Assembly: GCF_009914755.1 (NCBI RefSeq)
Contig: NC_060936.1
DNA from: the human T2T-CHM13v2.0 reference genome, Homo sapiens
Strand: one strand, 5' to 3'
DNA: 64,000 bases
The notes beneath the pieces are model-generated. The model was not told where the DNA came from, searched no databases, and saw only the letters and a program-made list of their open reading frames with translations. This document shows positions 18,684 through 57,706 of this stretch, piece after piece. The translations under genes were made by a program, and so were the position numbers. Position 1 is the first letter of the stretch. Every line of letters begins with the position of its first letter.

Positions 18684-18742
18684 TGAGTAAAAATGTCGCT
18701 GGAGCCTCGGTGCAAGCAGCAGATGAGACCCATCCTGCAGGT
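18684..18742 (-). pseudogene. TSPAN11-like CE7: TCRMGLICCLH / RLQRHFY, stop position reads TCA
   Basis: Matches recalled C-terminus ICGMVLTCCLHQRLQRHFY with a 1-nt deletion; upstream pyrimidine tract kept but the acceptor AG is missing. Confidence 0.9.
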
Positions 18743-18864
18743 GGAGAGGGCAAAGGAGCAAAGAGAGATCAGAACTCCCTGAGGCTGTCAGCCATCAGGG
18801 CTCTGGAGCAGTGCTGCTCATGCCCAGTGCACATGTGAGTCCCCTGGGGCCTGGAGAAAGGGCA

Positions 18865-19095
18865 GCTTCCCGCTTAGGTTGGGGTGGGGCCTGCGGTTCC
18901 ACACTTCTAACAAGCTCCCAGGTGATGCCCGTGAAAGTGGGGGAGCCGCACTCCAAGAACTACTGTCCAAGAGCAGGGTGTCACACACTTTAATGGACAT
19001 AAACCACCCGGGGACCCCCTTATTACAAGTTTGCAGGCCTGGGTGGGGGCCTAAGGGTCTTCGTTCCTAACAAGCTCCCCGTCGATGCTGTGGGT
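18865..19095. mobile_element. Two MER5-like fragments
   Basis: Two copies of GGGTGGGGGCCT...CTAACAAGCTCCC..GATGC. Confidence 0.55.
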
Positions 19096-21771
19096 CTGTG
19101 GTCCTAGGGCTTCTCCAGAAATGGCCTAGTTTAATGAGATCCCGAGTGAGTATTTCTGCTCCCTCATCAGAGCTGTCTGAAGCCGCCTTCTTCTCTGGGA
19201 AACGGCCTGTATTTTGCTGCCCTCAGACTCCGGAACAAAACTCAGGTCCGTTATGGATGCTCTGCCATGTGCAAGAGCCATGGGGGAAACGGAGACTCTG
19301 GGAGGAGCCCCTAGAGCTGTCATCAGCTCTGACAGTGAGCACAGAAGGCAGCGCCAAGCCCAGCCGCAGGAGTCCCGCCTGCCAGCCCCTCTGTCGGCAA
19401 CCAGGGGCCGAACAGGAAGGGGCTGGAGCATCCTACCCAAAGCACGCGCAGGCTTGGGAAGGTCGCTGTCCGCCCCGTCTCACTTCCCATTTCTAAAACA
19501 CAGAGGACCTTTATTCTCCCACCTTGCTCTTCATGGACACCCCCTGCCCCCCGCCACCTTCTTCTTCCTCTCCTCCCTCCCACTCAAGGATGCACTGGGA
19601 TAATGTCATCATGATCCTGATAATGATGATGACCTGTTGTCAGGTCTCGACTCTGTCTGCAGGAGAGGGGCACTGGGCTAGAGCAGCCCCGTGAATGTCC
19701 CGTGCCACCTGGGGTGACAGTAGATTCCCCTAAGTATAGAAACAACACCCCGACTTTCCCCAATGTTTCCAGCTGCTGCTGCCGCCCTGACCTTGCGAAT
19801 CTGGATGTAGAGGGCAGGCTGGTGGAGGTGCCTGTGGGCCGTACCCACTTGTCTCTCAGCAAGGCTAGTGAAGAAGGTAGCTTCTTCCCCTCCTCTCTCC
19901 TCTCCATCCCTCCAAACCTGGAGGGCAGCAGGGAGTGTGACCACTGCCTTCAGCTTGGAGACTCGGTGCTGAGGGCTCTGTTAATCCACCTCGGGGCCTC
20001 AGGGTCACAGCTGAAATGTGGCTTAGGAGGTTATTTCATGTCCCACCAGCTTAAGCAAGTGGCTGTCACAGCCCCTCCACCCACGTAGGTGTTATGCGGC
20101 ATGCCCTCTTCCCCTGTCCCCACCTCATGGGTTGATGATTTTCCTGTGCACTTTCTGGATCTTTCTGATCCATGCTAAGGGGGAGGCCAGAAGGGAGCTG
20201 TTAGGCCAGCACAGATTTGTGCTGTAAGCAAAATTCACGTCTCGTACAGTGTACATCTGATGCTGGGGGAGGACAGGAGGAGCTAGGCTCTCAAGAGACA
20301 CACTTCTGCATGAGATGTGTGTTCCCAGGGTGCTCCCAGGAGAGGTCCAATAAGGGTGGAGGTGTATGGGCCAGACTCATCAATGTGGGTCCACATGCAC
20401 ACACACACGCGCACACCCCCACCCTGAATCGTGCAGAGGGCACAGGATACTGACCCGCCGGATCCCTGAGTAAGCATCAGCATCTCTCTCCTGACAGAAG
20501 ACGCGAAGAAACCAGCACGGAATGGCTCCAGGCAGCCAGCAGGGGGCGAGCAGAGACAAGACAGGACAAGTTCCCTGCAGGTGCTGGAGAAGGCCAACCG
20601 GGTTGGGCCGGGCCCTGGGGCCCAGCTGCATGGTGTCTGGTGCTTTTTTTCGGCAGCTGCCTGGGTGTGGCACTCGGCCACACGTGGGACATTTTTTTTT
20701 TAACAGGGAAGTCGTCATGCCTTCAGCTTCTTATGAGGTTTCTGAGTCAGCTCCTGGCTGTCATCAGAGAACACGAAGGAGGGGCCAGGGAAGTTCCAGG
20801 AAGTCATTCCAAAGTGATTGCTTGGTTTCCCTTTTCACGACCTGCAGATCCCAACACTCCAGGATGGTGCAGGACATCAGTCTCAAGGTAATTGGTCACA
20901 GAGGTGAGAACCTTACTGAAAAATCAGAATGTGAACCCTGGAAGGTTCCTGAAAGATGAGCTAGACGGTTTTGAAACTGTATTGGGAATCCCAAGTGTAG
21001 CTCAAGGCTACTGGTCTTCGAGGTACCAGGCTGGGTATGTCGGGGAGGTAGGTGCCTGGTGTCTGCCTGCTGGCGACGATGACTGCGAGCCCTTTCTCAA
21101 GACTTCGGCCCACCTGGGTCTTGGGCAATGTAGTGCCCAGCATCGGCCGCGAGAGGGAGCTCTAACCTGAGACTTGGCGGCCGCAGGGCTGGCTCAGTGG
21201 ACCGCAGGGGAGAAAACAGGGCAAGGGGTTGAGCGCCATCAGGAGCCATTCCACAGTGACCATGGAGGAGCAGAGACTGCATGGTGGGGGTTGTGAGTGG
21301 GGAGAAAGCGTCCACTCACCTGAAAGCCCAACGACCTGGTCTCCTCGGCATCAGACTTACACAGCAGTTCCATCCACCTTGACCTTAGGGCTCAGGGCAT
21401 CTGCAGCCCTACTGCCGGCCCTCGGCCTCACTGCCCTCATCTGGCAGCTTCTATGTGCTCTCGGGGCTGGAGAGGTCAGGAAGAAATAGACAGAGTGGGC
21501 CAGGCTTGGTCGGAGTCCATACAGAGCAGGCCCCCTCTGCACGGGGAGTCACAGATTTCTGGAAACCTCAGCTGAGCCTGGTGCAGTGGCACAGAGCAGC
21601 CCTGCCCCAGTTCCCAGTGGTGACTCCTCTGGGGTTCAGCACATGGGACAGAAGACCTGCCCTGGGGAGGTGCAAAAGAGCGGCAATGCTAACGCCACCT
21701 GGGCTCCCTGGCCCTGCAGGTGAGTGAGGATGAAGGGGAGCAGGCTGGTCTGGCCAGGGAGAAACTGGGGC

Positions 21772-21798
21772 TTTTTTTTTTTTTTTTTTTTTTTTTTT
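21772..21798. repeat. Poly(T)27
   Basis: Direct read; followed by GAGAGACAG. Confidence 0.9.
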
Positions 21799-22910
21799 GA
21801 GAGACAGTGTGCCCTTGCAGAGAGAATACAAATGATGGTGTCACATGTTGAGCACCTGCTATCTGCTCAGCAGTGAGCCAGACACTTCCATGGGTGTTGC
21901 TAATTCCCATCACCAGCTACCAGATGAGGTCCGGTCAGCCCCATTTCACAAATCAGTGACTGAGGCTCAGAGATGAAATAAATGGCCCTAGGTCACACAA
22001 CTTGCAGGTGGCAGAACCAAGGTGAGTGTCCCTCCAAAGGCTAGAGACCCTCCTCCCAGCATGTTAGGCTGTAGCTGGACCCTCCAGGCCCACAGACCAT
22101 GTGGGTAGCTGGCACCATCATCTGAAAGGACCCTATGCTGGGAGTCTCTCCAAGCCAGCCAAGGCCACCATCCCTTGCTTCTCTTTCCCACAGACCTCTG
22201 AGTCGGGGTAGGGAGTTTGCGAAAGCGAAGGGCCAATATCAGGAGATCGGGGCGCCATTTCAGGGGGTGAGACCCTGGGCAAGTTGCCTCTCTGGGTCTC
22301 AACTTTCTGATCTGTAAAGTGAGAACGCTACTCGTTGTCTGGCCTGGGTCTCAGGTTGTTGTATGGACCCAGTGAGAGGAAGTATCGGAAATCCTCTGAA
22401 GTCTGCGGACAGCTGGATAAAGGCTTACGGAGGCTTTCATTTGTGCCATGTGCTGTAAGTGGGTCACAGGCATCACCTTATTCTTATTTAGACCTTAGGA
22501 GGTTGAAGAAATTATTCACATTTTGCAGATGAAGGGTTGAGGGATAGGGAAGTTAAGTAGCTCGAGGTCACACAGGAGCAAAGCCAGGACTGGACTCAGG
22601 TCTTCTGAGGCCTAAGCACTACTCTTCCTCTTCCCTAGACGGTGCTCATAGCACTGGACGGGGAAGGGCTGGGTAGGACAGCAGGACTGCTGGGCCCCTT
22701 CTAGAAGGACAGCCTACACTTGCGGGGGCTCTCACCTCTGAGGATTCCTTCCTGGCTCCCCTCCCTTGGACCCTTGACTACAGCAGCCTGAGAGAGTGAC
22801 CTTGACTTCCTGGGTGGCAGCAGGGGGACTGGGTGGAAGGGAGAAATGGGAGCCAAGGGCATTGCTTATCCTCAGGGAGAGAGCTGGATGTACACAGGGG
22901 AATGTGTGTG

Positions 22911-22958
22911 CACAAGCACACGCACACGCACGCGCACGCACACACACGCACACGCGCA
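22911..22958. repeat. (CA/CACG)n microsatellite
   Basis: Direct read. Confidence 0.85.
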
Positions 22959-22964
22959 CTTATA

Positions 22965-23256
22965 TACAGTTGTTCTGGATTCCAAAATCCACTGATGCTC
23001 AAGTCCCTGATATAAAATGGTGCAGTATTTGCATGTGACGTCTGCACATCCTCCCACATTCTTTAAATCATCTCTAGATTACTTGTAATTCCTAATACAA
23101 TCCACATGCTATGTAAATCGTTGTCACGCTGTATTGTTTAGGGGGTAATGACAAGGATGTTCAGTGCAGACATAACCATCCTTTTTGTTAGTACTTTTAT
23201 TCCATGGTTGGTTGAATCCAAGGATACAGAACCTGTGGATATGGAGGGCTGATGGT
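22965..23256. mobile_element. MER2-like (TcMar-Tigger) DNA transposon
   Basis: CCAAAATCCACTGATGCTCAAGTCCCTGATATAAAATGG...TTGGTTGAATCC...GGATATGGAGGGC. Confidence 0.8.
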
Positions 23257-23343
23257 ACACACACACACACACACCCACACACACACACACACACACCCAC
23301 AGACACAGACACACACACACAGACACAGACGCAGACACACACA
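23257..23343. repeat. Interrupted (CA)n microsatellite
   Basis: Direct read. Confidence 0.92.
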
Positions 23344-23754
23344 GGAATGAATGCAGATATGTACACACTCACACATGCACAAGCACCCTAAACACACACA
23401 GTGCATACCACCCCACCCACATAGACCCGGGAACATGGGGACCCCCACGGACCCACACACACCACGGCAGGCTTGCACACTGACCCCCACATGCACACAC
23501 TCAAGGTGCATGCCCGTACCTGAGCCCACATCCACACTCCTCCCAGGCCCCTGTTCCTGACAAGTTAATGTTGTCCCTCAGGCATCTTCCTTCATGTTCT
23601 CTGGGGGAGAGACTGACTGTGGGAATCAGCCTTGGTTGCAAAGGGAAGCTGAGAGAAGAGAGCAGCGCAGGGCACGGACATGCCAGCCCAGTTACTGGAG
23701 ATATCTGCCGCTGGAGACGGGTTCAGAGCCTAGTTTAATATCCCGAGTGAGTAT

Positions 23755-23809
23755 TTCCTCCTAATCTCCCAACTGCAACATACCTTCCTCCTAATCTCCC
23801 AACTGCAAC
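23755..23809. repeat. 30-bp-period tandem duplication next to the CE6 donor
   Basis: TTCCTCCTAATCTCCCAACTGCAAC at 23755-23779 and 23785-23809. Confidence 0.92.
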
Positions 23810-23813
23810 TCAC

Positions 23814-23880
23814 CTCCAGGCAGGCCACCCTGATGCCCATCGCCCCCATGAGTAGCAGGTAGCTTGGTGAGGCAGCCTCC
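23814..23880 (-). pseudogene. TSPAN11-like CE6: GGCLTKL / HLLLMGAMGIRVACLE with 20-nt deletion
   Basis: TTGCAG acceptor, GTGAGT donor, 67 nt versus 87 expected. Confidence 0.92.
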
Positions 23881-24258
23881 CTGCAAGGGAAGGGCAGGTG
23901 TCATGGCTTTGGCTCAGAAGCAGGCACAGGTGGGGAGGAAGGGCTGGCCGTCCCGGTGCATATGGCAGAGGCAGAGGGTGGACCAGAGGACTCATGGGCT
24001 GGACCTGGCCTTGAGTGGCTCACAGGTTTCGTGGGTGGCCCCAGGAGCATGCCATGGTGCCCTGGACTCTCTCAGCAGGAGCTGCTTGTCCCAGGGCTTT
24101 GTAGAGCGTCTGAGGGGCCTGGCACTGTGGGCTCATGGCCAAGAATCATGTGTGCTCTGCTATTCCCACACCCATCTGCCTGACCCCAGCCCTTTGGGGG
24201 CTCCTGGAGGCCAGGCTGGGGCCCTTTCCTTGTCCCCAGCTTGCGCTGGGGCACTTAC

Positions 24259-24414
24259 CACCCCCTTGCAGATGTTGGAGGGGTGGGCCGGCTGGCTGCA
24301 GAGCGCCACCACTGCCTTGCAGCCGCTGTCGGGCACTGGTGGCTCTCACCTCCCACGACAGCAGGTACGTGCTGCGCTGCCAGTCGCTGAGCTATTGCAT
24401 CCGTAGCACTTGAA
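24259..24414 (-). pseudogene. TSPAN11-like CE5 (EC2 core): FKCYGCNSSA/DWQRSTYLLSWE/ESHQ/PDSGCKAVVALCSQPAHPSNICKGV
   Basis: CTGCAG acceptor, GTAAGT donor, 156 nt with three single-base deletions; CCG->CYG and PDSCC->PDSGC; TGA at 24346-24348 in the shifted frame. Confidence 0.93.
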
Positions 24415-26442
24415 CTGCAGGGGGAGGCAGAGGCTGGAGGTGAGAAGCCTGTGTGGGGTTCCAGGGCCGACGACACAGGATTCAAATACCCAACCCCTCT
24501 TTGCTCTCCCTGCGATTTCTGCCTTCCCTGTTTGAGCAGAGAGCTGGTCTCTGGGGGCCAGCACTGCCCGCAGGACACCTATCTGCTACCTGCAGTCACC
24601 CAGGTCCTTTAAGGAGATTATGCTGGGTGTCCTGGGGGCAGGGTAGGTCTGTGAGGTGGGCAAGATGGAGGGGGGGGTCCCCAGAGAGGGGGGCTGTGTA
24701 CTGCTGCCTGACAGAACGCAGGCTGGTGACAAGCCACAAGGGGCAAGGAGGCCCTGGTCATCCAGGAGGCAGGACACGGGGACAGGGACCAGCCTTGCCA
24801 GGGGTTCCCAGGTGAAACCTCAGAGCCCCAGACATGCAGGGACACAAAGGGTGTCCCAGAGTCCACGGTGTGGGCAGGTCAGTGTTGGCCAGAGGGGCCG
24901 GTGTGAATGCTGAGTGAGGCCCGGGGTCGTCGGCACCACTCCAGGGCAGGAAAGTGCCAGCCAGGGTGGAAAGCAATTCAAAGGCAGCGGACTCAGGCCA
25001 CTTCCTGCCCTTCTGAGTCAGGGCCCTGAGACTCCAAGTCCCTACACGGGCCACAGAACACAGCGGCTGGGAGGCTGTCTCTGGTGTGGGAATGGGGCTG
25101 GGTGGGCGGAGCGGTATTAGTTCATTAGTTCAGCTACCAGCGTTTTGCTAGGTTTGCCATGTGCCTGGAGTGAACAAACATGAGTCAGGCACCAGTCCTG
25201 CCCTGAAGTAGTGTAGCATTTACTGTAGTTTAGTAGAAGACAATGGAAGCTTGTGTGTGAACCCCAGAGAAGGAAGGGGTGAATCCTCTGTCCAGGGCTA
25301 GGAAACGTCCACAGGGATGGACGGGGGTGCTGGGCGTCCTGGCCGAACATAACTGCAGCAGACAGGGCAGGGACTGGCGCAGCGAGGGCAGGGAGTCACG
25401 CGGCCTCACACATCCCTGTGTCTCTGTCTGTGTGTGCTGGCGCCGCACGACTGCTGGGCCACTTGCTTGTAAAATGGGGCCAACAAAAGGACCTGCGCCC
25501 TGGGCCATCGTGCGGACTGAAAGAGGTGATTCATGGAAAGCAATTAGAAGAGAGCCTGGCGCAGCACCCGCAGTTAATGAGAGACACTTTTGTGATCATC
25601 GTCGTGTGAATGCAGGTGCGCGTGCCCGTGTCATTTACATCCATGGGGTGCTGCTGGGAGGCCTGACGCTAGCCCTGGCTCTGCAGCCACTGCTTTCTGG
25701 GGGTCGGTCTCCTGCCTGAGATGCAGGTTGGGGTTCTAACTGTTCCCGGCCTGTGTGAGGGCCTGCGTTCGCGTGCACTGGTGCCCTGCAGGTCTTGGTC
25801 GGTGACACCGCCTCTGCTCTTAGCGGTACCTTTCCTCGTGCCACTCCCACCCCTCCACCTAAGCAAACCCTGCCCCTGCCCCACGGAGCCCTCCCCCCCT
25901 CCCCTGCTCCCTATTCTGGGGGTGCCCCAGCCTCACACTGTCTGCACGTTGCCTGCTGTGTGTCTGGCTTTCTGAGCGAGCCCGCGGGTGGGATTCTGTC
26001 CTATTCTTGTCTCGCCCAGGTCCTCACAGGCGCGGCCCAGTGACTGCACACTTAGTCTTGCACAGGGCTGACCAGTGGTGTGTGCTGCCCCATCCCAGTC
26101 CAGGGCTAAGTCTGTGGGGTACACGTGTGCCTGTGGGTGTGCACCTGTGTATACACGTGTGCCCTAGGCCACTATTTCAGAAAAGAGACCCCTCTGCCAA
26201 CTGGGAGCTGAGCCTGAGTCTTGGGGAGATGGGGTGAGGGCTTCCGCACTGAGCCATGATGCCCCTGGATCTTGGAGCTCATGACGTCTATGTCTTCCAC
26301 TTGCCTGACGTTCCCTGGGCCAAGACCAAGGCCCCAGGCCCAGGGGGTGAGGGTGGGGAGTGGGGTGGCAGAGAGAGGGGGACCAGAGCAGGTGGGTAGA
26401 GCAGACTTGGATTTTCTGACACAAACCCATCAGGATCTGGAA

Positions 26443-26634
26443 CAGTGGCGTCCAGGAGAACTTTCTGCGATGGAGGCAGCGTCCTGCATCTGTGCTGCCC
26501 AGCTCCGCGTTCACTCACCATCTGGGGCTCCTGAGTGCCTGAAATGTGGTTGGTGCGAGCAAGGAACTGGATTTTGTTTAATTTAACTGTAAATAGCCAC
26601 ATGTGGGCGGTGGCTGCCGTATTGGACAGCACAG
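26443..26634. mobile_element. MER3 hAT-Charlie element
   Basis: AGAACTTTCTGCGATG...TGAAATGTGG...AAATAGCCACATGTGG...CGTATTGGACAGCACAG. Confidence 0.82.
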
Positions 26635-27240
26635 CTCTGAGGTCCACTGCCCGCCCCCTATGTCTGGCAGGATGGTGGGCCTCGCTGGAGGGATCTGCCG
26701 CATCTTTTCTTGGAAAGGAGACCACCTTTCTGTCCCTCAGCATCCTGCCTGCTGGCTCACAACTGGGGAGTTCTGTTGGTGGCTTAGCTGAAATACCCCC
26801 GTCGGGTAGCGCTCCCTTTTATGGGGCTTCAGCTCCCCGCTCCCCAGGGAAGAAGGAAGGCAGCCTTACAGACAGGAGAAACCCGGAGAGAGGCTTCCTG
26901 GCCCAGATCCTGGCAGGAGATGGAGTTCTCCTGGTACTGCCAGCTTCCTGCCCACCAGGACCCAGAACGGGAAGACAGCAGGGGTGGGTTTGGAGGAGGG
27001 AGTCAAGGAGAGGGAGGGAGAGGAACCAGGCTTCAGCAGGCACTTCTCACGGTGGTAGGGACTTTACAGGTGTGACCGAATTTAATGCTCACATACCCTA
27101 AAGAGGCTTCATTTTAGGGATGTGGCAACCGAGGCTCAGAGAGGGTAAGTAACTTGCCAGGGCCACACAGACAGGAAAGAAGAGAGTCAGGATTTGAACC
27201 TGTGTCTGCTTGGCCTTCAAGGCCATAGGGCATGGTGTAC

Positions 27241-27345
27241 CTCCTGCTGCAGCCGGTCTACTGAGGCGGGGATCTGTGTGGCTCTAGCCTGCCCGCAGTT
27301 CTTGGTCAGAGTCTGGCTCAAGTGCTGCTTCTGTTCATCACTCAG
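27241..27345 (-). pseudogene. TSPAN11-like CE4: LSDEQKQHLSQTLTKNCGQARATQIPASVDRLQQE
   Basis: CTCAG acceptor, GT donor (GTACAC, weak), 105 nt, frame open. Confidence 0.93.
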
Positions 27346-28224
27346 CTGAGGAGTGATAAGATGGCATCAGCGGGACCACCCCACCCTTGCCTACCACCCA
27401 GGCCTGCTGCCAGGCCTCCCCAGCTAACTCTAGAGCACTGTGGCCTGTGGATGGTGCGATGACTATCAGTGGGAAACAGGGCAGAAGATGGCCATAAAGA
27501 GGAGGTTACAGAAGCTGGGCCCTGATTCAGGGCGCAGGTGCACTGGGCAGAGCTGAGGGAGGCTGGGAGGCTCAGGTAAAGGGTGGCAGCCAGAGGTGGT
27601 GGGAGGCGGAGGTGAGGCTAGACACCAGAAACTGAAATGTCTATTGATCTTAATTTTGATTAAGAGGTGATATTCAAAATACTTACAATTGTTACCCTGT
27701 GAGCACCACTCCAGCATGGCTTAAACAGCCAGCAGGGTTGTGTTGTCTCTACCAGCTGAACGTTACCCTGGTCATGGCCTCAAACTCTCGATTCAGAGGG
27801 CAGCAGGGTGGGAGCAGATGGGACTGGTCACTGCGTCTCTGTTCAATCCAGGCAGGCAAGACCCGATCCTGTCTTCAGGGTCTTCCATGTGATCCTGGCC
27901 CAGGCCTTTCTTCTTGGATGCCTCTGACAGATGGATTCATTCTCTAGACCATCCTTGAAAGGGGAGAGGGATGACCTAAGCTCCCACGGGAAGCCCCCCT
28001 CCCCAACTCCCATGCAGAAGACATCAGCATCAGTGGAGTCAGGGAATTGCTGAAGCCAGGGCCAGCAGCTGGGATCCAGATGTGTGGAAGATTGCCAGGG
28101 TGGAAAGCGGGACCACCCCTGTGCCTGCCGCAGCTTCCCCCATCACCATGCACCCCCCTTATCCCCGCGCATGGCTTCATCGGGACACAGACAGAGAATG
28201 GAGGAGGAGGAAGCATCCACTCAC

Positions 28225-28295
28225 CCTCTGGTAACACACATGGGCCGGGACTCCCGCCACCAGCTCAACCAGATAATAAGTGACAGGCAGAAATA
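28225..28295 (-). pseudogene. TSPAN11-like CE3 (TM3): YFCLSLII / VELVAGVPAHVCYQR with 4-nt deletion
   Basis: Pyrimidine tract plus CCTAG acceptor, GTGAGT donor, 71 nt versus 75 expected, so frameshifted. Confidence 0.92.
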
Positions 28296-36542: not shown

Positions 36543-36545
<3 letters not shown>

Positions 36546-43387: not shown

Positions 43388-43391
43388 TCTG

Positions 43392-43811: not shown

Positions 43812-44003
43812 CATGGAGAGGCAGCCCTTCTGCTCCTAGGAGATGGTGCTGTTGCCCAGGAAGCCGGTCACCATGACGAGAGTACCCGCTCAGATGAGGA
43901 TGCAGGCGGAGGCGGTGAAGGTGCTGGAGGCCAGGATGCTGAGGTAGCTGCTCCTCTCCACCAGGGTCCAGATGCCCATGGCCAGGACAGCTGCCCCCCT
44001 GAC
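43812..44003 (-). pseudogene. TSPAN11-like CE2: VRGAAVLAMGIWTLVERSSYLSILASSTFTASACILI*AGTLVMVTGFLGNSTIS*EQKGCLSM
   Basis: CCTGCAG acceptor, 192 nt, GIW and GFLG tetraspanin motifs; in-frame TGA (43890-43892) and TAG (43836-43838); expected donor position reads CT, not GT. Confidence 0.94.
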
Positions 44004-44064: not shown

Positions 44065-44250
44065 GAGTGCCCGCTGGGTACCAGGCACTTCTCGTGCATT
44101 GTCTTATTCAATTTAGGCCTCCTAAGAGCCTGTGAGAACAGTGTGGTGGCCTAGCTTTACAGATGAGGAAACGGAGGCTGAGAGAGGTTTGCAGGCTTGT
44201 CCAAGGTCACACATGTAAGCGAGCTGCAGATTTTGAATCTGGGTCTGACT
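44065..44250 (-). mobile_element. MIR SINE
   Basis: TTTACAGATGAGGAAACGGAGGCTGAGAGAGG...CTTGTCCAAGGTCACAC. Confidence 0.8.
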
Positions 44251-45635: not shown

Positions 45636-45810
45636 CATAATTTTTCAATTCCATGATGCCCATTTTTTCTCACATTTTAACGTCTCTAAAATTGGGGCAC
45701 ATCTTATGATTGATGGCATCTTACAATTACACTTGGCAGTACTTTTTCTTGGTGATACAAAAAAACAACAGTGTATCTTACAACTGATAGCTTAGATTCA
45801 GTGAAATCCT
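45636..45810. mobile_element. MER104-like (TcMar) DNA transposon relic
   Basis: CACATTTTAACGTCTCTAAAATTGGG...GATGGCATCTTACAA resembles the recalled consensus. Confidence 0.55.
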
Positions 45811-48800: not shown

Positions 48801-50923
48801 CATGGCCTCAGGGCTCTTACGTGTCTGGCCTTAACCTATTTTTGGCTTTATCTTCTGCTACTTTCCTTCCTCCGTACCTGGGCTTTAATCACCATGAACA
48901 AAGTAGTTGCTTTTCTTGTAAACATTGTAGATACCCATTAACTATGGCAGCAATAGTAGAGTGGTAAAGAGGGTGAACTCTGGGGTGAAGTACCGGTGTC
49001 CGAGTCCAAGCCCCTCTGTTTACGGCTGTGTGGATTTGGATAGGTTACCAAACTCTGGGCCTCTGAGAGGCTCTCTCCTGTCCCTTCCCAACCTGCTCAC
49101 ATTGTTCTCTTTGCCGTTCCTTTTCCACTGAATTCCTACTCACCCATGAAGCCCCATCTCCAGTGCGGCACCTGCTCTGACTCTGCTGGGCAGGTGAGCT
49201 TGTCCCTCTCGTGCACACCTGTGGCACTGCTCCCCTCACAGCAGCCCTCGGCCCGGGGGTGGGAGACTCCCCCGACTCCCCTCAGAACCCCGGGCCCAGC
49301 AAACCACCTGGCACCTGGCAGCCGCCCACATGAGCATGGGACTCCACGAACGGGGCTTTGTAGGGGGCTTTGGAAATAGCGGCATCTGCTCCCCTCACCC
49401 GTCTGTCTGCTGAGCTCCTGAGGCAACAACGAGTATCCCCCTTCCCTGTTTTATGGCCGTTTTTATTTTTGGAGGGGCAGTCTGCAAAGTGCCAGCAGTC
49501 CCCGAGGGCAATGGACTTTCCTCCAGGTCATTAGGAAGAAGCCCCTGGAAAGGATCTTCATGCCAGACCAATGCTTGGCTATTCTCGTTCTTTCTTTCAA
49601 CCCACACCCACTGTGCACTTGCTATGAGGACGCCAGGCTCTCAGGCCATAGTGGGGTCCACACCTGTCACTTCACCTGCCCTCATGTCGCAGGCCAGTGA
49701 CTAGATGGGAAGGCCCAGCAATCACCAGGGTGATTTCCATTAGAAAGAGAGGAGAATGGGTCTAATTTCAGGGAGGGGGGCTGGCAAACACAGCCTGGGG
49801 GCTCAGGAGAGGACTGGGAGGCCATGTCTGAGCAAGGCTCGGTTGCTTGTAAAGAATGGTACCCCGTTCCCACATCAGAAGAGTCAGCTGAACCCCGGGC
49901 TGCAGTCCCAATAGTGCACTGCTGAGCCTGGCGCTCACCTGCAGGGTAGATGGCACCTCAGTGCCACACCTGAGCCTCTGAGCTCTCCAGGAGGGCATAG
50001 GCAGGCATGTATCAGGCACCACTGCTCACCCTGCTTGTGAGTGACGTTTTTCTGAGCACCAGGCAAGCACTTCTCCCCGGCTCTGTCCATGCTGCCATTG
50101 CCTTGGTTTGACTGAATCTTCAAGGACAGGCTTGTCATGCTAAGGGCCATTTTCCACTTTGAGGCATTCTTTTCTTGGTTCTCTGGTTTTAAAGAGCACT
50201 TGATAAAATAAATCAGAGCACTGCTTCCCCCTCTGTCTTCCCCATCCCATCTACCCTTATAACAAGAGCAGAATCTCATGGGGCATACCGAGGGGTGGAG
50301 CTGGAAAGGAACATAAAATCACCTTCCAAACCCAGCTCAGTATCCAAGGGAAACCTTCCTTGGAGCTGTCTCTCCCCACTCCTCAGCAAACCATTCTGTC
50401 CTCTGTACCAGCTCCATGTCTTGCCCATGTTTTTGTAATTATACTCATCACTGCCTATTTGTTTTATTTGCTACCTTGTGTGTCCTCTTTTAGCCTCTTG
50501 ATAAAACCTTATTCATCTTGGTATCTCCAATGGAGTCCTACATGTGGGAGGGAAGAAAGAAGGAAGAAAGGAAGGGAGGGAGGAAGGAAGGGAGGAGGGA
50601 ATCGAGTTCAACCCCTTTTATATTCTGGAGGGAGAAACTAAGGCCCAGAGAAAAGTGACTTTTCCACAGTCACACAACTAGCCAGGGGAAGCATGGAGTC
50701 TAGAACTCAAGAATCCTAATGCTCAGTTTAGTGTCCATTTTACCAATTGGGCTGCTGACCCACACGAAGCTGCTTGGCCCAGGAAGCAAGTTGTGCGGTG
50801 CCTGGGCTACAGTAGATCTAGAGTCCCTGAGCTGCAGATGGGCAGCTAGGAGGGGTGACCACAGCTTCATCCTGACTTGTCTCACTCACCATGGCCCCGA
50901 GCAGACCAAATGCACATCCCTCT

Positions 50924-51278
50924 TGATATGGTTTGGCTGTGTCCCCACCCAAATCTCATCTTGAATTGTAGTTCCCATAATCCCCACATGTCGTGGGTGG
51001 GACCTGGTGGGAGGTAATTGAATCATGGGGGCGGGTCCCCCATGCTGTTCTCATGAGTGAGTTCTCATGAGATCTGATGGTTTTGTAAGGGGCTTTCCCC
51101 CCTTTGCTTGGCACTTCTGTCTCTCCTGCCACCTTGTTTGCTTCCCCTTCCACCATGATTGTAAGTTTCCTGAGGCCTCACCAGCCATGCTGAACCATGA
51201 GTCAGTTAAACCTCTCTCCTTTATAAATAACCCAGTCTTGTGTATTTCTTCATAGCAGCATGAGAATGGACTAATACA
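50924..51278 (+). mobile_element. THE1C-like solo LTR (ERVL-MaLR)
   Basis: TGATATGGTTTGGCTGTGTCCCCACCCAAATCTCATCTTGAATTGTAGTTCCC...GGACTAATACA; TG...CA ends. Confidence 0.92.
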
Positions 51279-52220
51279 CCCCTCAGCCATGGCCCTGTCC
51301 CCCAGCAGATCCTGACAGCCAAGAGGGGTAGAGGTGCCCCGAAAGCCGTGGGGAGTCCCATGCCATTCAGCATCTCAAGAAGCGGTGCAGCAGAGAAACC
51401 AGCTACGAGGTCCCTCACCTGTTTTTCCTCAAATGGCAAGCCCAGGAAGGGGGCAGAGGCCACGTTCAGTGGGGTGATGCTGTCCGAGGTGAAGGGCTTT
51501 CTAGCTCTGGCAAAGAGGTGAGCAGAAGGCCCCACCAGGGCCTCCCTAGATCCTGAAGTGATGCTCCCAAGCCACCTCATTCCCCTGCCAGGCTCGGTCC
51601 TCCATCTTCTCTGCCACCTGTCTTGGTCCCATGCCTCCTTTAAGGGCTCCCAAGCTTCCCTGTAGGCTGAGCCCTCCTGGCGGCCTGGGAAGGAGCAAGG
51701 TCTCCGCTTCAGGAGCAGAGGCAGCCTCTCCAGTCACGGAGTGCTTCCCATTGCCTGGCAGAGCTCCTGGGAGGCTGGAAAAGTTTTGATTATGAACACA
51801 GCCAAGCAGCTAATTAAAATAATAAATTAGAGAAAAACATTGCAGGGGTAATGGTAGCTGCAGGGAGCCGTGGAGGAAAAGGGAGGGGAAAGAAACACAT
51901 CTTCTAGGTGGCCGCCTAGGAAAGCCTGGGCCACATTTTCTTTTTAGGGCCATGAAAGAGGCATGAAAGTGTGGCATTTTGGTTCCTCCTCTGCTCAGCA
52001 GGATCATCCCATAATGATTATGGCTTAACTGAAACCCTAGGTGGGGTGGGGCGGTGGGAGTCAGAGATAGGGTGACGGGGAAGAATTGCCACCTGAATCC
52101 TGCTTCGTGTTTTGCAAACTTTGGAATGTGACCCATTTGGGTGATAAAATAAATTTAGTGGGTTGTAACCTGCACTAAAAAAAGTGAGCTAAAATAGTAG
52201 AGAAAATATCAGCATGCATC

Positions 52221-52776
52221 TGTATTAGGATTTTCTAGATGGGTAGAACTAATAGAATCTACGTATATATGAAAGGGTGTTTATTAAGGAGAATCGACTC
52301 ACAGGATCACAAGGTAAAGTCCCACAATAGGTCGTCTGCAAGTTGAGGAGCAAGGAAGCCAGTGGTGGATCAGTCCGAGTCCCGAAACCTCAAAAGTAGG
52401 GAAGCCGACATTGCAGACTTCAGGCTGTGTCCAAAGGCCCAAAAGCCCCTGGCAAACTACTGGTGTAAGTCCAAGTGTCCAAAAGCTGAAGAACTTGGAG
52501 TCTCATGTTCGAGGGCAGGAAGCATCCAGCATGGAAGAAAGATGAAGGCCAGAAGACTCAGCAAGTCAAGTCCTTCCATGTTCTTCTGCCTGTTTTATTC
52601 TAGCCATGTTGGCTGCTGATTAGACGGTGCCCACCCACATTGAGGGTGGGTCTGCCTGCCCCAGTCCACTGACTCAAATGTTAATCTCCTTTGGCAACAC
52701 CCTCACAGACGCACCCAGGAAAAATACTTCACATCCTTCAATCCAATCAAGTTGACACTCAGTGTTAACCATCACA
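52221..52776 (-). mobile_element. MLT2A-type (probably MLT2A2) solo LTR of HERV-L
   Basis: Minus strand starts TGTGATGGTTAACACTGAGTGTCAACTTGATTGGATTGAAGGA; perfect 5-bp TSD GCATC (52216-52220, 52777-52781). Confidence 0.92.
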
Positions 52777-53087
52777 GCATCATATACCGTAAGGGTAAGT
52801 TTAGTTTTCTGAATGTTTCGTGTGAGCATTTCTTATGCTTCCATGCATATCATGAGTCACCATCAGAAAAGTCTCAAAGTCAGCACTATGGACAGAGAAA
52901 GTCATTAAAGAGACCAGGCATGCCCATCAGTCTAATCATAATAGTTATGCATAATAGCTAAGCACTGAGTATGTGGCACAAATTGTGCTATTTTTCTAAA
53001 TAGTAACCTCTAATTCTTACAGGTATTGGTATTCTCATGTAGCATATGAAAAAACTGAGGCTCAGTGAGATTAAGTGATTTGCCTAA

Positions 53088-53452
53088 TGTCTTAGTTCAA
53101 GCTGCTGTAACAAAATGCCACAGTCTGGGTGGCTTAAACACCAGAAATTAATTGTCTCACAGTTCTGCAGGCTGGGAAGTCCAAGATCAAGGTGATCTGT
53201 TCTGGGTGGGGCTCTCTTCCTGGCTGGCCAATGGCCGCCTTCTTGCGGTGTTCTCACCTGGTGCTTGTCTATGGAGAAAAAGAGAGCTCTCCCTCTCTTC
53301 CTGTTCTTAGAAGACCATCAATCCTAGCAGAACAGAGCCATGCCCCTATGGACTCATTTAGCCTTACTTACCTCCCTGTCTCCAAATACAGGCACATTGC
53401 TGGTTAGGGCTTCAACATATAACTTTTGGGGGACACAATTCAATCTGTAGCA
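53088..53452 (-). mobile_element. MLT1A-like solo LTR inserted into a MIR
   Basis: GCTGCTGTAACAAAATGCCACAG...GGCTGGGAAGTCCAAGATCAAGGTG...GGGGACACAATTCA; flanks CCTAA/CCCAA; MIR core continues on both sides. Confidence 0.85.
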
Positions 53453-55175
53453 CCCAATGTCCCAGGGCAAATAAATAATGGAGTCTGAATTTGAATCCAA
53501 ACTTGAGTCTGAGCCTTCCCAGCATGCTGTGCTGCCTCGTTAATTCATGAATGCCCCGAGGACACTAGGAAAGTGTGCAATTTAGAGCTGGGGCTGCAAA
53601 GCGTGGTGACCAAGCACACAGGCCTGGGGCCAGGCAGCACTGGGCTACAGCTCCGGGACAAGGCACAGTGCTTCCCATTCCTAAAGCAGGGCTCTAAGAG
53701 AGCCATTCACAGCTTCAGGCAGGGCTGGGAGGATTAATGGGATGATGCACCTGCAAGGACAAGCACAGAGGCCCACCATAGTGAGTTCCAGGAACGCTGG
53801 GAACTTTGTTTACTGATAGACCCTATGGGCCTAGACCCATGCCTGGCACTTACTAGGTGCTTCATACAAATTGTGGACTGAGTTTTTAATTGTCATTTTC
53901 ATCACTGACCTGGTATTAGAATACCTGGGTGCCAGTGTTAGCTTTAGCAACACTATCAGACCTTGGGTGAGATTCAGAACCGGGTGGCCTGTTCCCTGTC
54001 TGTAAAGTGAGGATAATAATGACAGTGACCATCCAACAGCTCCTGTCAAATGCTGGGCTCAGAACTGCATTGGGGCCAACCCAGGTTTCCCCTCTCTGTG
54101 CTGGGTTTCGATAAAGAGTGCAGGGTGATAGACTAGAGAGGACCTCGTTCTGGGGGAGAAAGGAAGCTTGTGTTTCCCCTGTGCTGTGCCTCATACCTCG
54201 GCAGGCTCAGGCAGGAGGACAGCGATTGGACGCTGGGGGTGTCTGTGTGGGAGGGAACCTTCTCTTGTTGGAAGGGATCCTCACTGGCCAACGCCCCCTC
54301 CTGGGGAATTCTGGTGAGTTCCTAGGGACTTGGTGCTCTGTCCCTAGGGACTGGGCCTGCAGGCTGCCCAGTGTCTACCCCGGAGGAGATTGCAGCAGGT
54401 CTTGGGGACCGGACGCCAGGAACCCCTGTGTTGGAGACTGAGGTCTGAACCTTCAAAATCCAACCATCCCCCACCAGGGAAAGAAGTCTGAGCTGAGCTG
54501 GTCCCTGGGAAGCTGGTCCACGGCCAGCCAGGCCCTCGGCAGGGGTATTTTTAACTGGAAGCAGGGAGCGCTGCATGAAGGAAGCTCCCCTTGCTGGCAA
54601 CTGCACCAGTAACACACTTGCTGCGCAGCTGTGTGCACTGCCACCCACAGGCCCTTCTCCTTCCCTCCCCAAAAGGATGCACACACCCAACAGGCCCTGG
54701 GTCCTCCCCAACCGTGGTCACCATGTCTGCTGCCCACTCCCACCTACGGGACCTTGGCACAGGCAGGAGCGCAGGGTCCGAGGCCTTCCACAAATATTTG
54801 GGCAGAGCACCTCAAGACAGCCCTAGGGACTAAAGAGCCGATGACCCTCTGGCCCCATCTGCTACTGCCCAGCCCTCTCCTGGTGCCCGGCCGGTGGTGT
54901 CTACACGGAGTCCACCTCCTCTACCCTCCCGTCTCTGCACTTTCCTGAAAGTGCTTTCCCCACAGCTGCCCCTCTGTTGCTAAGCCCAGTGGCCTCTCAC
55001 CGCTGACCTTCTCAGGCCCCTGGCTTCCCTCCCACCTCGCTGACTGTTCCGCCTCAGGCTCCCCTGATCAAACTGTAAGCACTGATCAGCTTGTCTGGGG
55101 CTCTCTTGGTTTTAGACTAAAAGTCTCACATCCTGGGAACTCCCTCAGTTCAGGGCAAACTGGGACTGTGGGTCG

Positions 55176-55262
55176 CCCCAGACTCACCCTGACCTTGGGG
55201 ACACCCCAGATCACCCTGACCTTGGGGACACCCTAGACTCACCCTGACCTGTGGGGACGCCC
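55176..55262. repeat. Minisatellite, 3 x 27-29 bp
   Basis: CCCCAGACTCACCCTGACCTTGGGGACA repeated three times with small changes. Confidence 0.88.
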
Positions 55263-55289
55263 ATGTCTCCTTCTTGCCTCTCGTTTCCT

Positions 55290-55690
55290 CTTGATCTCCA
55301 TGCTCTCCCTAAGGGATCTCCTGTATTTCTGTGGCTGCAGCTGCCATTGGGGTGGGGATGATCCCCAAGTCTGGGGTGCCAGCCTAACTTTCTCCTGAGA
55401 TCCAGACCTGTAAGCTAACTGCCTACAGGGCATCTCTGCTCAGAGGTCTCCTGGCACCTCGAAAAGTCACCATGTCTACATCTGACCTCACCATCTGACC
55501 CCAAACTTCTCTCTCCAGTCTCTGGTTTCAATGAAGAGCTCTACCATCCATCAGGAGATTCATATCCCAGGCACCTCTTCCAGCCAAAGGAATCTCTTCT
55601 TGTCAATTTCACCTCCTAAGTCCCTTGACTCCAAGTATTTCTGTCCCCGCTGTCATCCCCACAGTGCAGGTCATGACCATCTCTCACTTT
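55290..55690 (+). mobile_element. L2 fragment
   Basis: TCCAGACCTGTA...AACTGCCTAC...GCACCTCGAA...CCATGTCT typical of L2; approximate. Confidence 0.6.
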
Positions 55691-55745
55691 GATCGGTGCG
55701 AAGTCTAGAGGAAGTGTCAACAGTGGCCATTCCTGGGATGGCCAG

Positions 55746-56203
55746 TGGTATGGGTTGGACTGTGTCCCCCCAAATATATGTTGAAATCCTAACCACCGGA
55801 ACTGTGAACATGGCCTTATTTGGAAATAAGATCTTTGCAGATGTAGTCAAGTTACAATGAGGTCAGAAGGGTGGGCCCTAATCCAACATGACTGGCGTCC
55901 TTGGAAGAGGAAGACGTCACGCGAAGACAGAGACACACAGGAGAGCAGCATGTGACAGCAGAGGCCTTAGAGATTGGAGGGAGGCAGCTGCAAGTCAAGG
56001 AGTGCTGAGAATTGCCAGCCACTCTCAGAAGCTGGAAGAGGTGATAAAGGGTCCCTCCCCTAGAAGCTCCAGAGGAAGCACAGCCCTGCTGATGCCCTGA
56101 TTTTGGACTTGTAGCCTCCAGAACTGTGAGAGAGTGAATTTCTGTTGCTTAAAGCTATCCAGTCTATGGCACTTTGCTACAGCAGCCCTGGGAAGCTAAC
56201 ATA
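55746..56203 (+). mobile_element. MLT1B/C-like solo LTR
   Basis: CCTTATTTGGAAATAAGATCTTTGCAGATGTA...GCCTCCAGAACTGTGAGAGA...ACAGCAGCCCTGGGAAGCTAA. Confidence 0.85.
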
Positions 56204-57611
56204 GGGAGATAAGGACAATTTTCATTTTCTTAGCATACTTTTCAGTATTTTAGAGGTGATCTGTAGTGGATACACAAGACTTTTATGATTAGGAAAAACA
56301 TAGTCATTCTTAAAAAGAAGTGCTCATCAGTAGGAATCCTAAGCGTCCTATTGGATTTGTCCCTGAGAATTGAAGCCATCTATGCCACACAGTTTACTGT
56401 CCTCATCAACACAGCTTTTTTATTCCACAGGAGACTCTTGCCCAGGAAGATAAAAGCTGAACATAATTTTATTGTTCATTTCGGGGACTTTGCAAATAAC
56501 ATTTACACAAACAGCAGATTGTACAACTTTTTAATAGCATCTAATGACTGTCTTTTCACCAAGACTCTTCAAAAACTCTTGCCTTGCCATGTCTTCCCAT
56601 CCCAAACTCCTAGGTCATGGCTCTTCCCAATCTTAATCAAGTCCCTGCAGGAAAGATGCTCAAAACTCAGACATATCCCATTTGCATTTGGTTTTCTGAG
56701 ATGATTCTAAGACTCTGTAAAGGGTCTTCTCCCTTACCATGGTAGCAGGAAACCTGGCTGCCTTATCCGAGGGTTGATTTGGTGGTATTTTCAGGCATTT
56801 GACATCTGATATTCAAAATATTGCATTTATGGAATGCAACCCCAATCATCCCTGAATTGTAGCCAGGGAAACAGGCTCCTCGAACTTCAGTTGCTCAAGG
56901 CCACACCATTAGTAGCTGGCAGAGCCTAGGTCCAGCTGCCTGCAAAGCCTGCACTCTTACCCTTCTCCTACTTTCCCAAATTTAGTGAGACTGTAATACA
57001 AAATACTTATATTCTGGTGTCTGGCTATTTTTGGGTGGTATTCGGCTCCCAATTGTCCAGATAATGGCCCCAAGCGGACAGGCTATGGTCCTCAGGAAGA
57101 CATCACCCAGGCAGGTTTCCTGCGGGGAGTCACCATAGAGACCATTTCCATCACAGGCAGCAGCAGCCTGAGCTTCCGGGACTTCTGTTTCCCTGCCCTG
57201 GGCCTGGAGAATGTTAACCATGAAAGGCAAATGGGCTTCGGTTGGAAACAAGCCATTATTAGCCACTATTTCAGGCAGTCACATTTCCCACAAGGCACTT
57301 GTGCAACAAGTTAGCAGGGAAGAAAGAAGCCGAGCCTTTGTACGGCGGGGCCAGAACACAAAGCTCATTGTGATGTTTGTGCTTCTATTCAGACGCCACG
57401 TGGTACGGACTCCACGCCAACCTGCAGACTGGATTCTTTTCTTCCCCCTCAGTAACAAACATACACATTTGCTTTAAAGTAGGCAGAATTTGCCCATGGG
57501 TGGTCTTTGATTTGGAAGAAATCAACTTCAAAGTGGTGACTCACAAAAAACAAAGGTGGCTTGACTCATTCAGTGCTCGGGAAAGGGGATGTGTGTGCAG
57601 AATTCACTCAT

Positions 57612-57706
57612 CCAGAAGCAGAAGTTGAAGACAAGGAGTAAATACTTCAGGTAGACAATCAGCCAGTCATCCTGCTTGGTCTTGTAATGGGCCATGGCTG
57701 CTGAGT
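57612..57706 (-). pseudogene. TSPAN11-like CE1: MAHYKTKQDDWLIVYLKYLLLVFNFCFW (ATG at 57695)
   Basis: Acceptor TTCTCTAG, Kozak GCCATGG, 28 open codons, 24/28 identical to recalled TSPAN11 N-terminus; donor reads ATGAGT instead of GTGAGT. Confidence 0.93.

What the first reader, a model, noticed from the sequence alone, without database searches (positions are those of the whole stretch)
18684..57706. Hidden complete TSPAN11-like unprocessed pseudogene spread over 39 kb of the minus strand
Seen: seven segments (57612-57706, 43812-44003, 28225-28295, 27241-27345, 24259-24414, 23814-23880, 18684-18742) translate in order to a whole four-TM tetraspanin. The ORF track does not show it as a gene. 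Known (recalled): the peptides match TSPAN11, a CD151 paralog. Introns are retained, so it is a genomic copy and not a retrocopy. I cannot tell whether it is already annotated.
Basis: partly seen in the sequence, partly recalled or inferred. Interest (0 to 1): 0.85.

Follow-up and report, generated by a model that had tools for sequence, protein, structure and literature searches.

The report
TSPAN11 duplicated pseudogene beside TSPAN9
This is a dead, intron-containing copy of the tetraspanin gene TSPAN11 lying just downstream of TSPAN9; it is real and all seven coding exons are present, but it is an ordinary old primate pseudogene that RefSeq already names in part.

Summary
A gorilla TSPAN11 protein (253 aa) aligns colinearly to all seven minus-strand segments, with 185 of 253 residues identical. 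The copy is dead. It has two in-frame stops, five frameshifting deletions in exons 3, 5, 6 and 7, a lost stop codon and three lost splice sites (exon 1 donor, exon 2 donor, exon 7 acceptor). Introns are retained, and pieces of true primate TSPAN11 introns, seen through read-through or alternative-exon isoform models, match the copy's introns in order. It is therefore a genomic (unprocessed) duplicate, not a retrocopy. Old World monkey gene models from the same locus share several frameshifts, so the gene was dead before the human/Old World monkey split. The best tree puts the copy inside primate TSPAN11, near the anthropoids, but AU tests do not reject older placements. RefSeq's "tetraspanin 11 pseudogene" LOC100418939 covers only exons 1-2. 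Exons 3-6, the only ones with both splice sites intact, are exons of lncRNA LOC100128253. Exon 7 falls in neither of these two annotations. Verdict: a correct call, already known in kind and partly by name, and of low interest.

The parts
57612..57706 (-). Pseudo-exon 1: 11 nt of leader after an AG, then ATG and 28 codons (coding part 57612-57695). The donor is AT instead of GT.
   Evidence: 24 of 28 residues are identical to gorilla TSPAN11. The Colobus model P0006 reads through the same broken donor.
43812..44003 (-). Pseudo-exon 2 (192 nt, TM1-TM2). It has in-frame stops TGA 43890-43892 and TAG 43836-43838. The acceptor AG is intact. There is no GT donor, and 6 codons (18 nt) directly after the exon are missing relative to the unnamed model P0005.
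   Evidence: (PF00335 E=1.4e-4). 49 of 64 residues are identical. Monkey models have W and Q where human has the stops.
28225..28295 (-). Pseudo-exon 3 (71 nt, 75 expected). It has a 4-nt loss that shifts the frame. AG/GT are intact. It is the same as an exon of lncRNA NR_148995.1.
   Evidence: Monkey models read the shifted frame from the exon start, so the frameshift is shared.
27241..27345 (-). Pseudo-exon 4 (105 nt, open frame). AG/GT are intact. It is the same as a lncRNA exon.
   Evidence: 25 of 35 residues are identical.
24259..24414 (-). Pseudo-exon 5 (156 nt, 159 expected; large extracellular loop). It has a -1 frameshift near 24387 and a -2 near 24340. The CCG motif now reads CYG and PDSCC reads PDSGC. 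AG/GT are intact. It is the same as a lncRNA exon.
   Evidence: The Colobus model reads the frame that follows the first shift.
23814..23880 (-). Pseudo-exon 6 (67 nt, 87 expected; start of TM4). It has a 20-nt deletion near 23860. AG/GT are intact. It is the same as a lncRNA exon.
   Evidence: The Colobus model and P0134 carry the same shortened exon.
18684..18742 (-). Pseudo-exon 7 (59 nt, 60 expected). It has a -1 frameshift near 18709 and the stop codon has changed to TCA. No AG stands in front of it (CC directly in front, preceded by CT). It lies outside both the RefSeq pseudogene and the lncRNA.
   Evidence: (E 0.11). P0134 has the same out-of-frame tail.
23998..24258 (-). Start of pseudo-intron 5. 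It is homologous to TSPAN11 intron 5 as read through in Papio isoform X1.
   Evidence: tblastn E=2.7e-15, 44% identity over 90 columns, starting at the base after pseudo-exon 5.
26553..26955 (-). Two blocks in pseudo-intron 4 (26812-26955 and 26553-26648). They are homologous to alternative exons of Chlorocebus X3 and Cercocebus X4 TSPAN11 models.
   Evidence: E=5e-13 (60% of 48) and E=3.7e-10 (69% of 32), in the right order between pseudo-exons 4 and 5.
23575..23633 (-). Block in pseudo-intron 6. It is homologous to the alternative last exon of the Callithrix X3 and Microcebus X2 TSPAN11 models.
   Evidence: 13 of 15 and 10 of 13 identical, E=4.6e-5 and 4.9e-4.
18988..28295 (-). The part of lncRNA LOC100128253 (NR_148995.1) inside the window. 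4 of its 11 exons here are pseudo-exons 3-6.
   Evidence: The coordinates in the supplied annotation are identical to the pseudo-exons. Splice dinucleotides were checked. Its longest ATG ORF here (115 codons) reads exon 5 out of the tetraspanin frame.

Best explanation
A genomic segment holding the whole coding part of TSPAN11, introns included, was copied into the interval downstream of TSPAN9, on the opposite strand, early in primate evolution. The stem of the anthropoids is most likely, and the event is roughly two to three times as old as the human/Old World monkey split. The copy lost its reading frame before that split and has decayed at about the neutral rate since. It makes no tetraspanin.

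Four of its exons (3-6) still have both splice sites. They are spliced, together with unrelated exons, into the non-coding RNA LOC100128253, which starts at a promoter outside the window. Exons 1, 2 and 7 have each lost a splice site and are not used.

Shown here: colinearity, the lesions, intron homology, lesions shared with monkeys, and the state of the splice sites. Inferred: the date, neutrality, and that splice-site loss explains the lncRNA's exon choice.
For: 1. Colinear tblastn of gorilla TSPAN11 covers residues 1-253 in seven minus-strand blocks. 185 of 253 residues are identical, and the lesions are listed.

2. The best database relatives of exon 2 are monkey models from the same locus (84%, 83%, 81%). 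True TSPAN11 proteins follow at 71-77%.

3. Six of 8 non-canonical tails of true primate TSPAN11 isoform models hit the copy's introns in the right order and strand, with E from 2.7e-15 to 4.9e-4.

4. Over 211 comparable columns, 28 changes are shared by the human and monkey copies and 11 are human-only. The frameshifts in exons 3, 5, 6 and 7 are shared.

5. In the ML tree the copies form a clade (100/100) inside primate TSPAN11 (83/93). They sit with the anthropoids (70/59) and next to Callithrix (82/77). The stem is 0.27 long against roughly 0.1 within the clade.

6. The human and monkey copies are 82-87% identical in translation. In my simulation this equals 0.06-0.09 changes per site, as expected without constraint (the expected human/monkey value is recalled).

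7. Exons 3-6 have AG/GT. The exon 1 donor is AT, the exon 2 donor is CT, and exon 7 has no AG in front. Three of 13 sites lost compares with 2.5-3.2 expected under neutral decay.
Against: AU tests do not reject a copy that branched outside crown primates (dlnL 10.4, p 0.18), outside crown anthropoids (p 0.32) or outside crown eutherian TSPAN11 (dlnL 7.3, p 0.29). The date therefore rests on weak topology plus intron similarity.

A strict clock on my numbers gives about 65-100 My, which is older than the anthropoid crown. It fits only if early primate rates were faster (recalled).

The monkey sequences are automatic gene models with junk stretches that I masked by eye. The parent locus DNA could not be compared, so intron homology is seen only through translated isoform models.

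Exon 7 alone has E 0.11. Pfam on exon 2 alone is below the gathering score (22 vs 32.1 bits). Use of exons 3-6 by the lncRNA comes from the supplied annotation, not from data I examined.
Confidence: 0.9

Rival explanations
1. This is a relic of an ancient third CD151/TSPAN11-type paralogue that sat beside TSPAN9 since early vertebrates and died in primates (a unitary pseudogene), rather than a primate-age copy of TSPAN11.
For: AU tests do not reject placement outside crown eutherian TSPAN11 (p 0.29). The stem branch is long (0.27). The idea that CD151 and TSPAN4 are neighbours in a paralogous region is my recollection and was not tested.
Against: The best tree nests the copy within primate TSPAN11. 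Its identity falls with distance: gorilla 77%, aardvark 75%, opossum 68%, coelacanth 61%. It carries states seen in the anthropoid rows of the alignment at positions 140 and 209 and in the primate rows at 35 and 88, some of which recur in a few non-primate rows. Intron sequence is still recognisably like primate TSPAN11 introns. No separate 'TSPAN11-like' clade from non-primates appeared among the rows listed.
Confidence: 0.05
2. The pseudogene-derived exons are kept because the lncRNA LOC100128253 has a sequence-dependent function, for example acting on TSPAN11 transcripts. In that case the intact splice sites of exons 3-6 reflect selection.
For: All 8 splice dinucleotides of exons 3-6 are intact and match the RefSeq lncRNA exons exactly (and the supplied annotation).
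Against: Eight intact sites have a probability of 0.11-0.19 under neutral decay, and 3 of 13 lost overall is the neutral expectation. The exons themselves diverge between human and monkeys at about the neutral rate. I found no paper on the RNA: one hit for LOC100128253, which is a table artefact, and only expression lists by title for LINC02827 (listing only).
Confidence: 0.07
3. The locus still encodes a protein, either a shortened tetraspanin or a polymorphic intact allele.
For: Automatic pipelines predicted proteins from the monkey locus (P0004, P0006, P0134).
Against: The human copy has 2 stops, 5 frameshifting deletions and 3 lost splice sites. Several of these are shared with monkeys. 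The monkey models reach an open frame only through out-of-frame or intronic stretches. The longest lncRNA ORF here is 115 codons and reads exon 5 out of frame.
Confidence: 0.01

Closest known systems
TSPAN11 (tetraspanin-11), the parent gene
   Same: It has the same seven-coding-exon layout (84/192/75/105/159/87/60 nt inferred from the protein alignment). 185 of 253 residues are identical to gorilla TSPAN11. Intron segments are homologous.
   Different: The reading frame is destroyed, the CCG motif and one loop cysteine are mutated, and three splice sites are lost. It lies beside TSPAN9 instead of at the TSPAN11 locus (the parent's location is recalled, not tested).
RefSeq LOC100418939, 'tetraspanin 11 pseudogene'
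   Same: It is the same locus and strand. Its span 43815-57695 equals the outer ends of my two best tblastn HSPs (57695-57609 and 44003-43815).
   Different: It covers only exons 1-2. The full remnant runs on to 18684, another 25 kb, through five more exons.
Transcribed unprocessed pseudogenes whose exons are reused in lncRNAs
   Same: Exons 3-6 are exons of NR_148995.1, spliced at the inherited AG/GT sites (supplied annotation).
   Different: The transcript starts upstream of the pseudogene, skips its first two exons, adds unrelated exons between and after the inherited ones, and ends before exon 7. No function is known.
CD151, the nearest tetraspanin paralogue of TSPAN11 (relationship recalled)
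   Same: It belongs to the same tetraspanin subfamily.
   Different: No protein that is CD151 by sequence appeared among the rows listed. One macaque record labelled 'CD151 antigen' (P0111) is 93% identical to aardvark TSPAN11, so it is TSPAN11 by sequence. No CD151 sequence was fetched, so no direct alignment was made.

Membership tests
TSPAN11-derived sequence | Colinear similarity to TSPAN11 over all coding exons | tested here: met
   Seven ordered minus-strand blocks cover residues 1-253, with 185 of 253 identical.
TSPAN11-derived sequence | Closer to TSPAN11 than to other tetraspanins | tested here: met
   Apart from 'hypothetical', 'unnamed' or 'uncharacterized' rows, named hits are TSPAN11 or TSPAN11-like. 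The one row labelled CD151 (P0111) is 93% identical to aardvark TSPAN11. The copy groups with eutherian TSPAN11 at 97/94 in the tree. The TSPAN9 exons in the window match gorilla TSPAN11 at only 29-35%. Solved tetraspanins match exon 2 at E about 2e-3.
Functional tetraspanin (Pfam PF00335) | Pfam domain above the gathering score | tested here: inconclusive
   Only single exons could be submitted. Exon 2 gave 22 bits against a cutoff of 32.1. Exons 4 and 5 gave no hit. The monkey models carry PF00335 as precomputed.
Functional tetraspanin (Pfam PF00335) | Open reading frame, CCG motif and loop cysteines (the motif's defining role is recalled) | tested here: not met
   There are two stops and five frameshifting deletions. 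CCG reads CYG and PDSCC reads PDSGC in human.
Unprocessed (duplicated) pseudogene | Introns retained at parent-like positions | tested here: met
   Exon blocks of 84, 192, 71, 105, 156, 67 and 59 nt are separated by 0.3-15.5 kb. AG/GT flank exons 3-6.
Unprocessed (duplicated) pseudogene | Intron sequence homologous to the parent's introns | tested here: met
   This was tested indirectly. Six of 8 non-canonical tails of primate TSPAN11 isoform models hit the introns colinearly. A direct DNA comparison was not possible.
Unprocessed (duplicated) pseudogene | An intact parent gene elsewhere in the same genome | not testable with these tools
   The genome was not available as a file. Gorilla TSPAN11 P0025 stands for a 92-member cluster. 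Human TSPAN11 at 12p11.21 is recalled.
Processed pseudogene (retrocopy) | Intronless, contiguous copy of the mRNA | tested here: not met
   The exons are spread over 39 kb with introns.
Unitary pseudogene | Branches as a separate old lineage with functional orthologues in other species | tested here: inconclusive
   The best tree nests it in primates. AU tests do not reject outside placements. No non-primate orthologue-like protein was seen in the listed rows.

The most novel reading that the evidence does not exclude
The four splice-competent pseudo-exons are not mere passengers. Under this reading, lncRNA LOC100128253 carries about 400 nt of TSPAN11-like sequence that modulates TSPAN11 expression (as a decoy, or by pairing with the overlapping plus-strand LINC02827), and this has kept its splice sites intact in catarrhines.
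Probability: 0.04. Interest if true: 0.4.

Novelty: already known. Interest (0 to 1): 0.12.

Why it matters
It matters little for biology. The main value is for annotation. RefSeq splits one 39-kb gene remnant into a two-exon 'pseudogene', four lncRNA exons and one exon that falls in neither, and reads or variants in LOC100128253 exons should be understood as TSPAN11-derived. It is also a clean small example of a lncRNA using exactly those pseudogene exons whose splice sites happened to survive neutral decay.

Tried and rejected

Earlier findings.

Solved structures. The PDB holds no TSPAN11 or CD151 chain among the matches. The best match to gorilla TSPAN11 is TSPAN7 at 5.6e-31.

Pfam. Single exons 4 and 5 gave nothing.

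Isoform tails. Four of the 13 tails tested gave no hit in the window: the Callithrix and Microcebus N-terminal extensions, and the exon-2 read-through tails of P0008 and P0009. The P0020 tail hit a low-complexity tract only. The Rattus X2 tail hit only an out-of-frame reading of exon 5.

Protein tree. The tree could not date the copy with significance.

Literature. 'TSPAN11' plus 'pseudogene' gave 23 papers; I saw the listing of 15 and none concerns this locus by title. LOC100128253 gave 1 paper; I read the passage and the name appears only as a mislabelled table cell. LOC100418939, TSPAN11P1 and 'tetraspanin 11 pseudogene' gave 0 papers. LINC02827 gave 2 papers (listing only). A five-term search on tetraspanin duplication and pseudogenes gave 0. 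A search on TSPAN11/CD151/TSPAN9/TSPAN4/paralog gave 16, with 12 listed, mostly reviews or surveys by title and none on this locus; none was opened.

Ancient-paralogue idea. I considered it and set it low for the reasons given under rival explanations.
Full report
**Observation**

The seven minus-strand segments were translated in all frames. Each holds a TSPAN11-like peptide, but five of the seven need a stop or a frame change to be read through.

A tblastn of gorilla TSPAN11 (P0025, 253 aa, representative of a 92-member cluster) against the window gave ordered minus-strand hits covering residues 1-253.

| Exon | Window position | E-value |
|---|---|---|
| 1 | 57695-57609 | 8e-13 |
| 2 | 44003-43815 | 2e-23 |
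| 3 (two frames) | 28295-28219 | 3e-4 |
| 4 | 27363-27241 | 2e-10 |
| 5 | 24426-24265 | 5e-8 |
| 6 (two frames) | 23886-23811 | 1e-3 |
| 7 (two frames) | 18748-18687 | 0.11 |

The only other hits at E<1 for that query were weak plus-strand matches (29-35% identity) to the TSPAN9 exons at 1675-1782 and 2208-2300. These serve as an internal control.

**Anatomy and lesions**

A frameshift-aware protein-to-DNA alignment, done exon by exon, gave 185 of 253 identical residues. The lesions found were:

- **Stops:** TGA at 43890-43892 and TAG at 43836-43838.
- **Exon 3:** 4 nt short (3-nt and 1-nt losses near 28277 and 28274).
- **Exon 5:** a -1 frameshift near 24387 and a -2 near 24340.
- **Exon 6:** 67 nt. 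The protein alignment shows the parental exon to be 87 nt (residues 206-234), so 20 nt are missing near 23860. My first partition of exons 6 and 7 was off by one residue, and this is the corrected reading.
- **Exon 7:** a -1 frameshift near 18709, and TCA where the stop codon stood.
- **Hallmark motifs:** the CCG motif reads CYG and PDSCC reads PDSGC. That these motifs define tetraspanins is recalled.

Splice dinucleotides were checked.

| Exon | Acceptor | Donor |
|---|---|---|
| 1 | AG | AT (lost) |
| 2 | AG | CT (lost) |
| 3-6 | AG | GT |
| 7 | no AG (CC directly in front, preceded by CT) | not applicable |

An unnamed model from the same locus (P0005) has six extra codons directly after exon 2, beginning with a Val codon. 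The human copy lacks them, so an 18-nt deletion took the exon 2 donor away.

**Which gene it came from**

Exon 2, with stops read as X, found 19 proteins at E<=1e-3 among 62 candidates.

- The top three were a gelada 'uncharacterized protein' (P0004, 84%), an unnamed record (P0005, 83%) and Colobus 'tetraspanin-11-like' (P0006, 81%).
- The rest were TSPAN11 of various mammals, or unnamed records, at 71-77%.
- Searches with aardvark TSPAN11 (852 hits, 120 listed) and with the Colobus model (586 hits, 120 listed) listed TSPAN11 or unnamed and hypothetical proteins. One macaque record labelled 'CD151 antigen' (P0111) is 93% identical to aardvark TSPAN11.
- The search with the Colobus model also found P0134, an unnamed 248-aa model closest to the gelada one, which runs through all seven exons.
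- Pfam on exon 2 alone gave PF00335 at E=1.4e-4, below the gathering score. Exons 4 and 5 alone gave nothing.
- Solved tetraspanins (TSPAN15, TSPAN7, CD9) match exon 2 at E of about 2e-3 to 3e-3 only.

**Unprocessed, with homologous introns**

I could not reach the TSPAN11 locus DNA. However, several database TSPAN11 isoform models of primates read into introns or use alternative exons. I ran 13 such tails against the window. Six of the 8 tails from true primate TSPAN11 models hit the copy's introns on the right strand and in the right order.

| TSPAN11 isoform model | Tail | Window hit | Result |
|---|---|---|---|
| Papio X1 | after exon 5 | 24258-23998, starting at the base after pseudo-exon 5 | E=2.7e-15 |
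| Chlorocebus X1 | extension before exon 5 | 24465-24400 | 16 of 22 identical |
| Chlorocebus X3 | alternative exon | 26955-26812 | E=5e-13 |
| Cercocebus X4 | alternative exon | 26648-26553 | E=3.7e-10 |
| Callithrix X3 | alternative last exon | 23619-23575 | 13 of 15 identical |
| Microcebus X2 | alternative last exon | 23633-23595 | 10 of 13 identical |

The two N-terminal extensions (Callithrix, Microcebus) found nothing. Neither did two unnamed exon-2 read-through tails (P0008, P0009). P0020 hit only a low-complexity tract, and the rat X2 tail hit an out-of-frame reading of exon 5.

The copy was therefore made from genomic DNA with its introns. It is not a retrocopy.

**When it died**

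The monkey models reach open frames only by reading out-of-frame or intronic stretches, and those stretches reveal shared lesions:

- They read exon 3 in the shifted frame from its start.
- Colobus reads exon 5 in the frame that follows the first shift.
- Colobus and P0134 carry the shortened exon 6.
- P0134 ends in the same out-of-frame exon 7 tail.
- Colobus reads straight through the AT 'donor' of exon 1.

The two human stops are W and Q in the monkey models, so they are later events.

Over 211 comparable columns (after masking the junk stretches by eye), 28 substitutions are shared by the human and monkey copies. Eleven are human-only, 3 are shared with some monkeys only, and 17 are monkey-only. 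The gene was therefore dead before the human/Old World monkey split.

**When it arose**

I built an ML tree from 24 TSPAN11 proteins and the four copies. The 24 were chosen by taxon from the 160 proteins fetched, with alternative tails masked.

- The copies form one clade (100/100).
- The clade sits inside primate TSPAN11 (83/93), with the anthropoids (70/59) and next to Callithrix (82/77).
- The stem length is 0.27, against about 0.06-0.13 from the clade's base to its tips.
- In the alignment, the copies share states seen in the anthropoid rows at positions 140 and 209, and in the primate rows at 35 and 88. Some of these states recur in a few non-primate rows.

AU tests reject none of the alternatives.

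| Alternative placement | dlnL | p |
|---|---|---|
| Outside crown primates | 10.4 | 0.18 |
| Outside crown anthropoids, or with catarrhines | 2.05 | 0.32 |
| Outside crown eutherian TSPAN11 | 7.3 | 0.29 |

I converted translated identity to nucleotide change with a simulation on the window's own DNA.

| Comparison | Identity | Changes per site |
|---|---|---|
| Human vs monkey copies | 169/205, 134/157, 130/149 | 0.06-0.09 |
| Human copy vs gorilla TSPAN11 | 185/239 | about 0.115, nearly all on the copy's branch |
| Intron-derived HSPs, as reported (Microcebus left out, as it overlaps Callithrix) | 120 of 207 columns | about 0.22 between two neutral lineages |
| Intron-derived HSPs, my hand count of in-frame blocks only | not computed by a call | about 0.17 |

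The duplication is thus roughly 2 to 3.5 times as old as the human/monkey split. With recalled dates (about 29 My for that split) and recalled faster early-primate rates, this is compatible with the anthropoid or haplorhine stem. It is not precise.

**How it 'works' now**

It encodes nothing. According to the supplied RefSeq table, pseudo-exons 3, 4, 5 and 6 are, base for base, exons of lncRNA NR_148995.1 (LOC100128253). That RNA starts beyond the window, adds other exons, and ends at 18988, before pseudo-exon 7.

The exons it uses are exactly those with both splice sites intact. This needs no selection. At 0.10-0.13 changes per site, 2.5-3.2 of 13 splice dinucleotides are expected to be lost (3 observed), and all eight sites of exons 3-6 survive with probability 0.11-0.19.

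The longest ATG ORF in the window part of the lncRNA is 115 codons. It reads exon 5 out of the tetraspanin frame.

**Comparison with what is known**

RefSeq's LOC100418939 'tetraspanin 11 pseudogene' spans 43815-57695, which equals the outer ends of my two strongest HSPs. It represents exons 1-2 only. I found no paper on the locus (listings and one passage only). GENCODE and HGNC could not be consulted.

The finding is correct. It is an ordinary duplicated pseudogene, already named in part. What is added here is its full extent, its lesions, its minimum age and the reason the annotation is split.

Noticed in passing
window 1675-1782 and 2208-2300 (+): Gorilla TSPAN11 gives weak tblastn hits (35% and 29% identity, E 0.023 and 0.16) to two annotated TSPAN9 coding exons. 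This is a useful internal control for how distant another tetraspanin looks.
   Followed up: no
window 43413-43667 (-): A Pro/Leu/Ser-rich translated tract about 150-400 nt downstream of pseudo-exon 2 matches the exon-2 read-through tail of an unnamed TSPAN11-like record (P0020), with E=3.7e-10 and 45% identity over 101 columns. It overlaps the masked repeat at 43399-43602. It may be a conserved CT-rich intron-2 tract or just low complexity.
   Followed up: no
window 23575-23633: The homologue of the alternative last exon used by the Callithrix and Microcebus TSPAN11 isoform models lies on the minus strand, inside the plus-strand LINC02827 exon 23582-23746 of the supplied annotation.
   Followed up: no
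window 21056-21188 and 18988-19125 (-): Among the 11 lncRNA exons in the window, one (21056-21188) has a GC donor. All others have AG/GT, apart from the terminal exon, which needs no donor.
   Followed up: no
PMC3655845, microarray table: The only paper holding 'LOC100128253' lists it as the description of a probe named LOC100128252, in a table where names appear shifted by one. It says nothing about this locus.
   Followed up: yes
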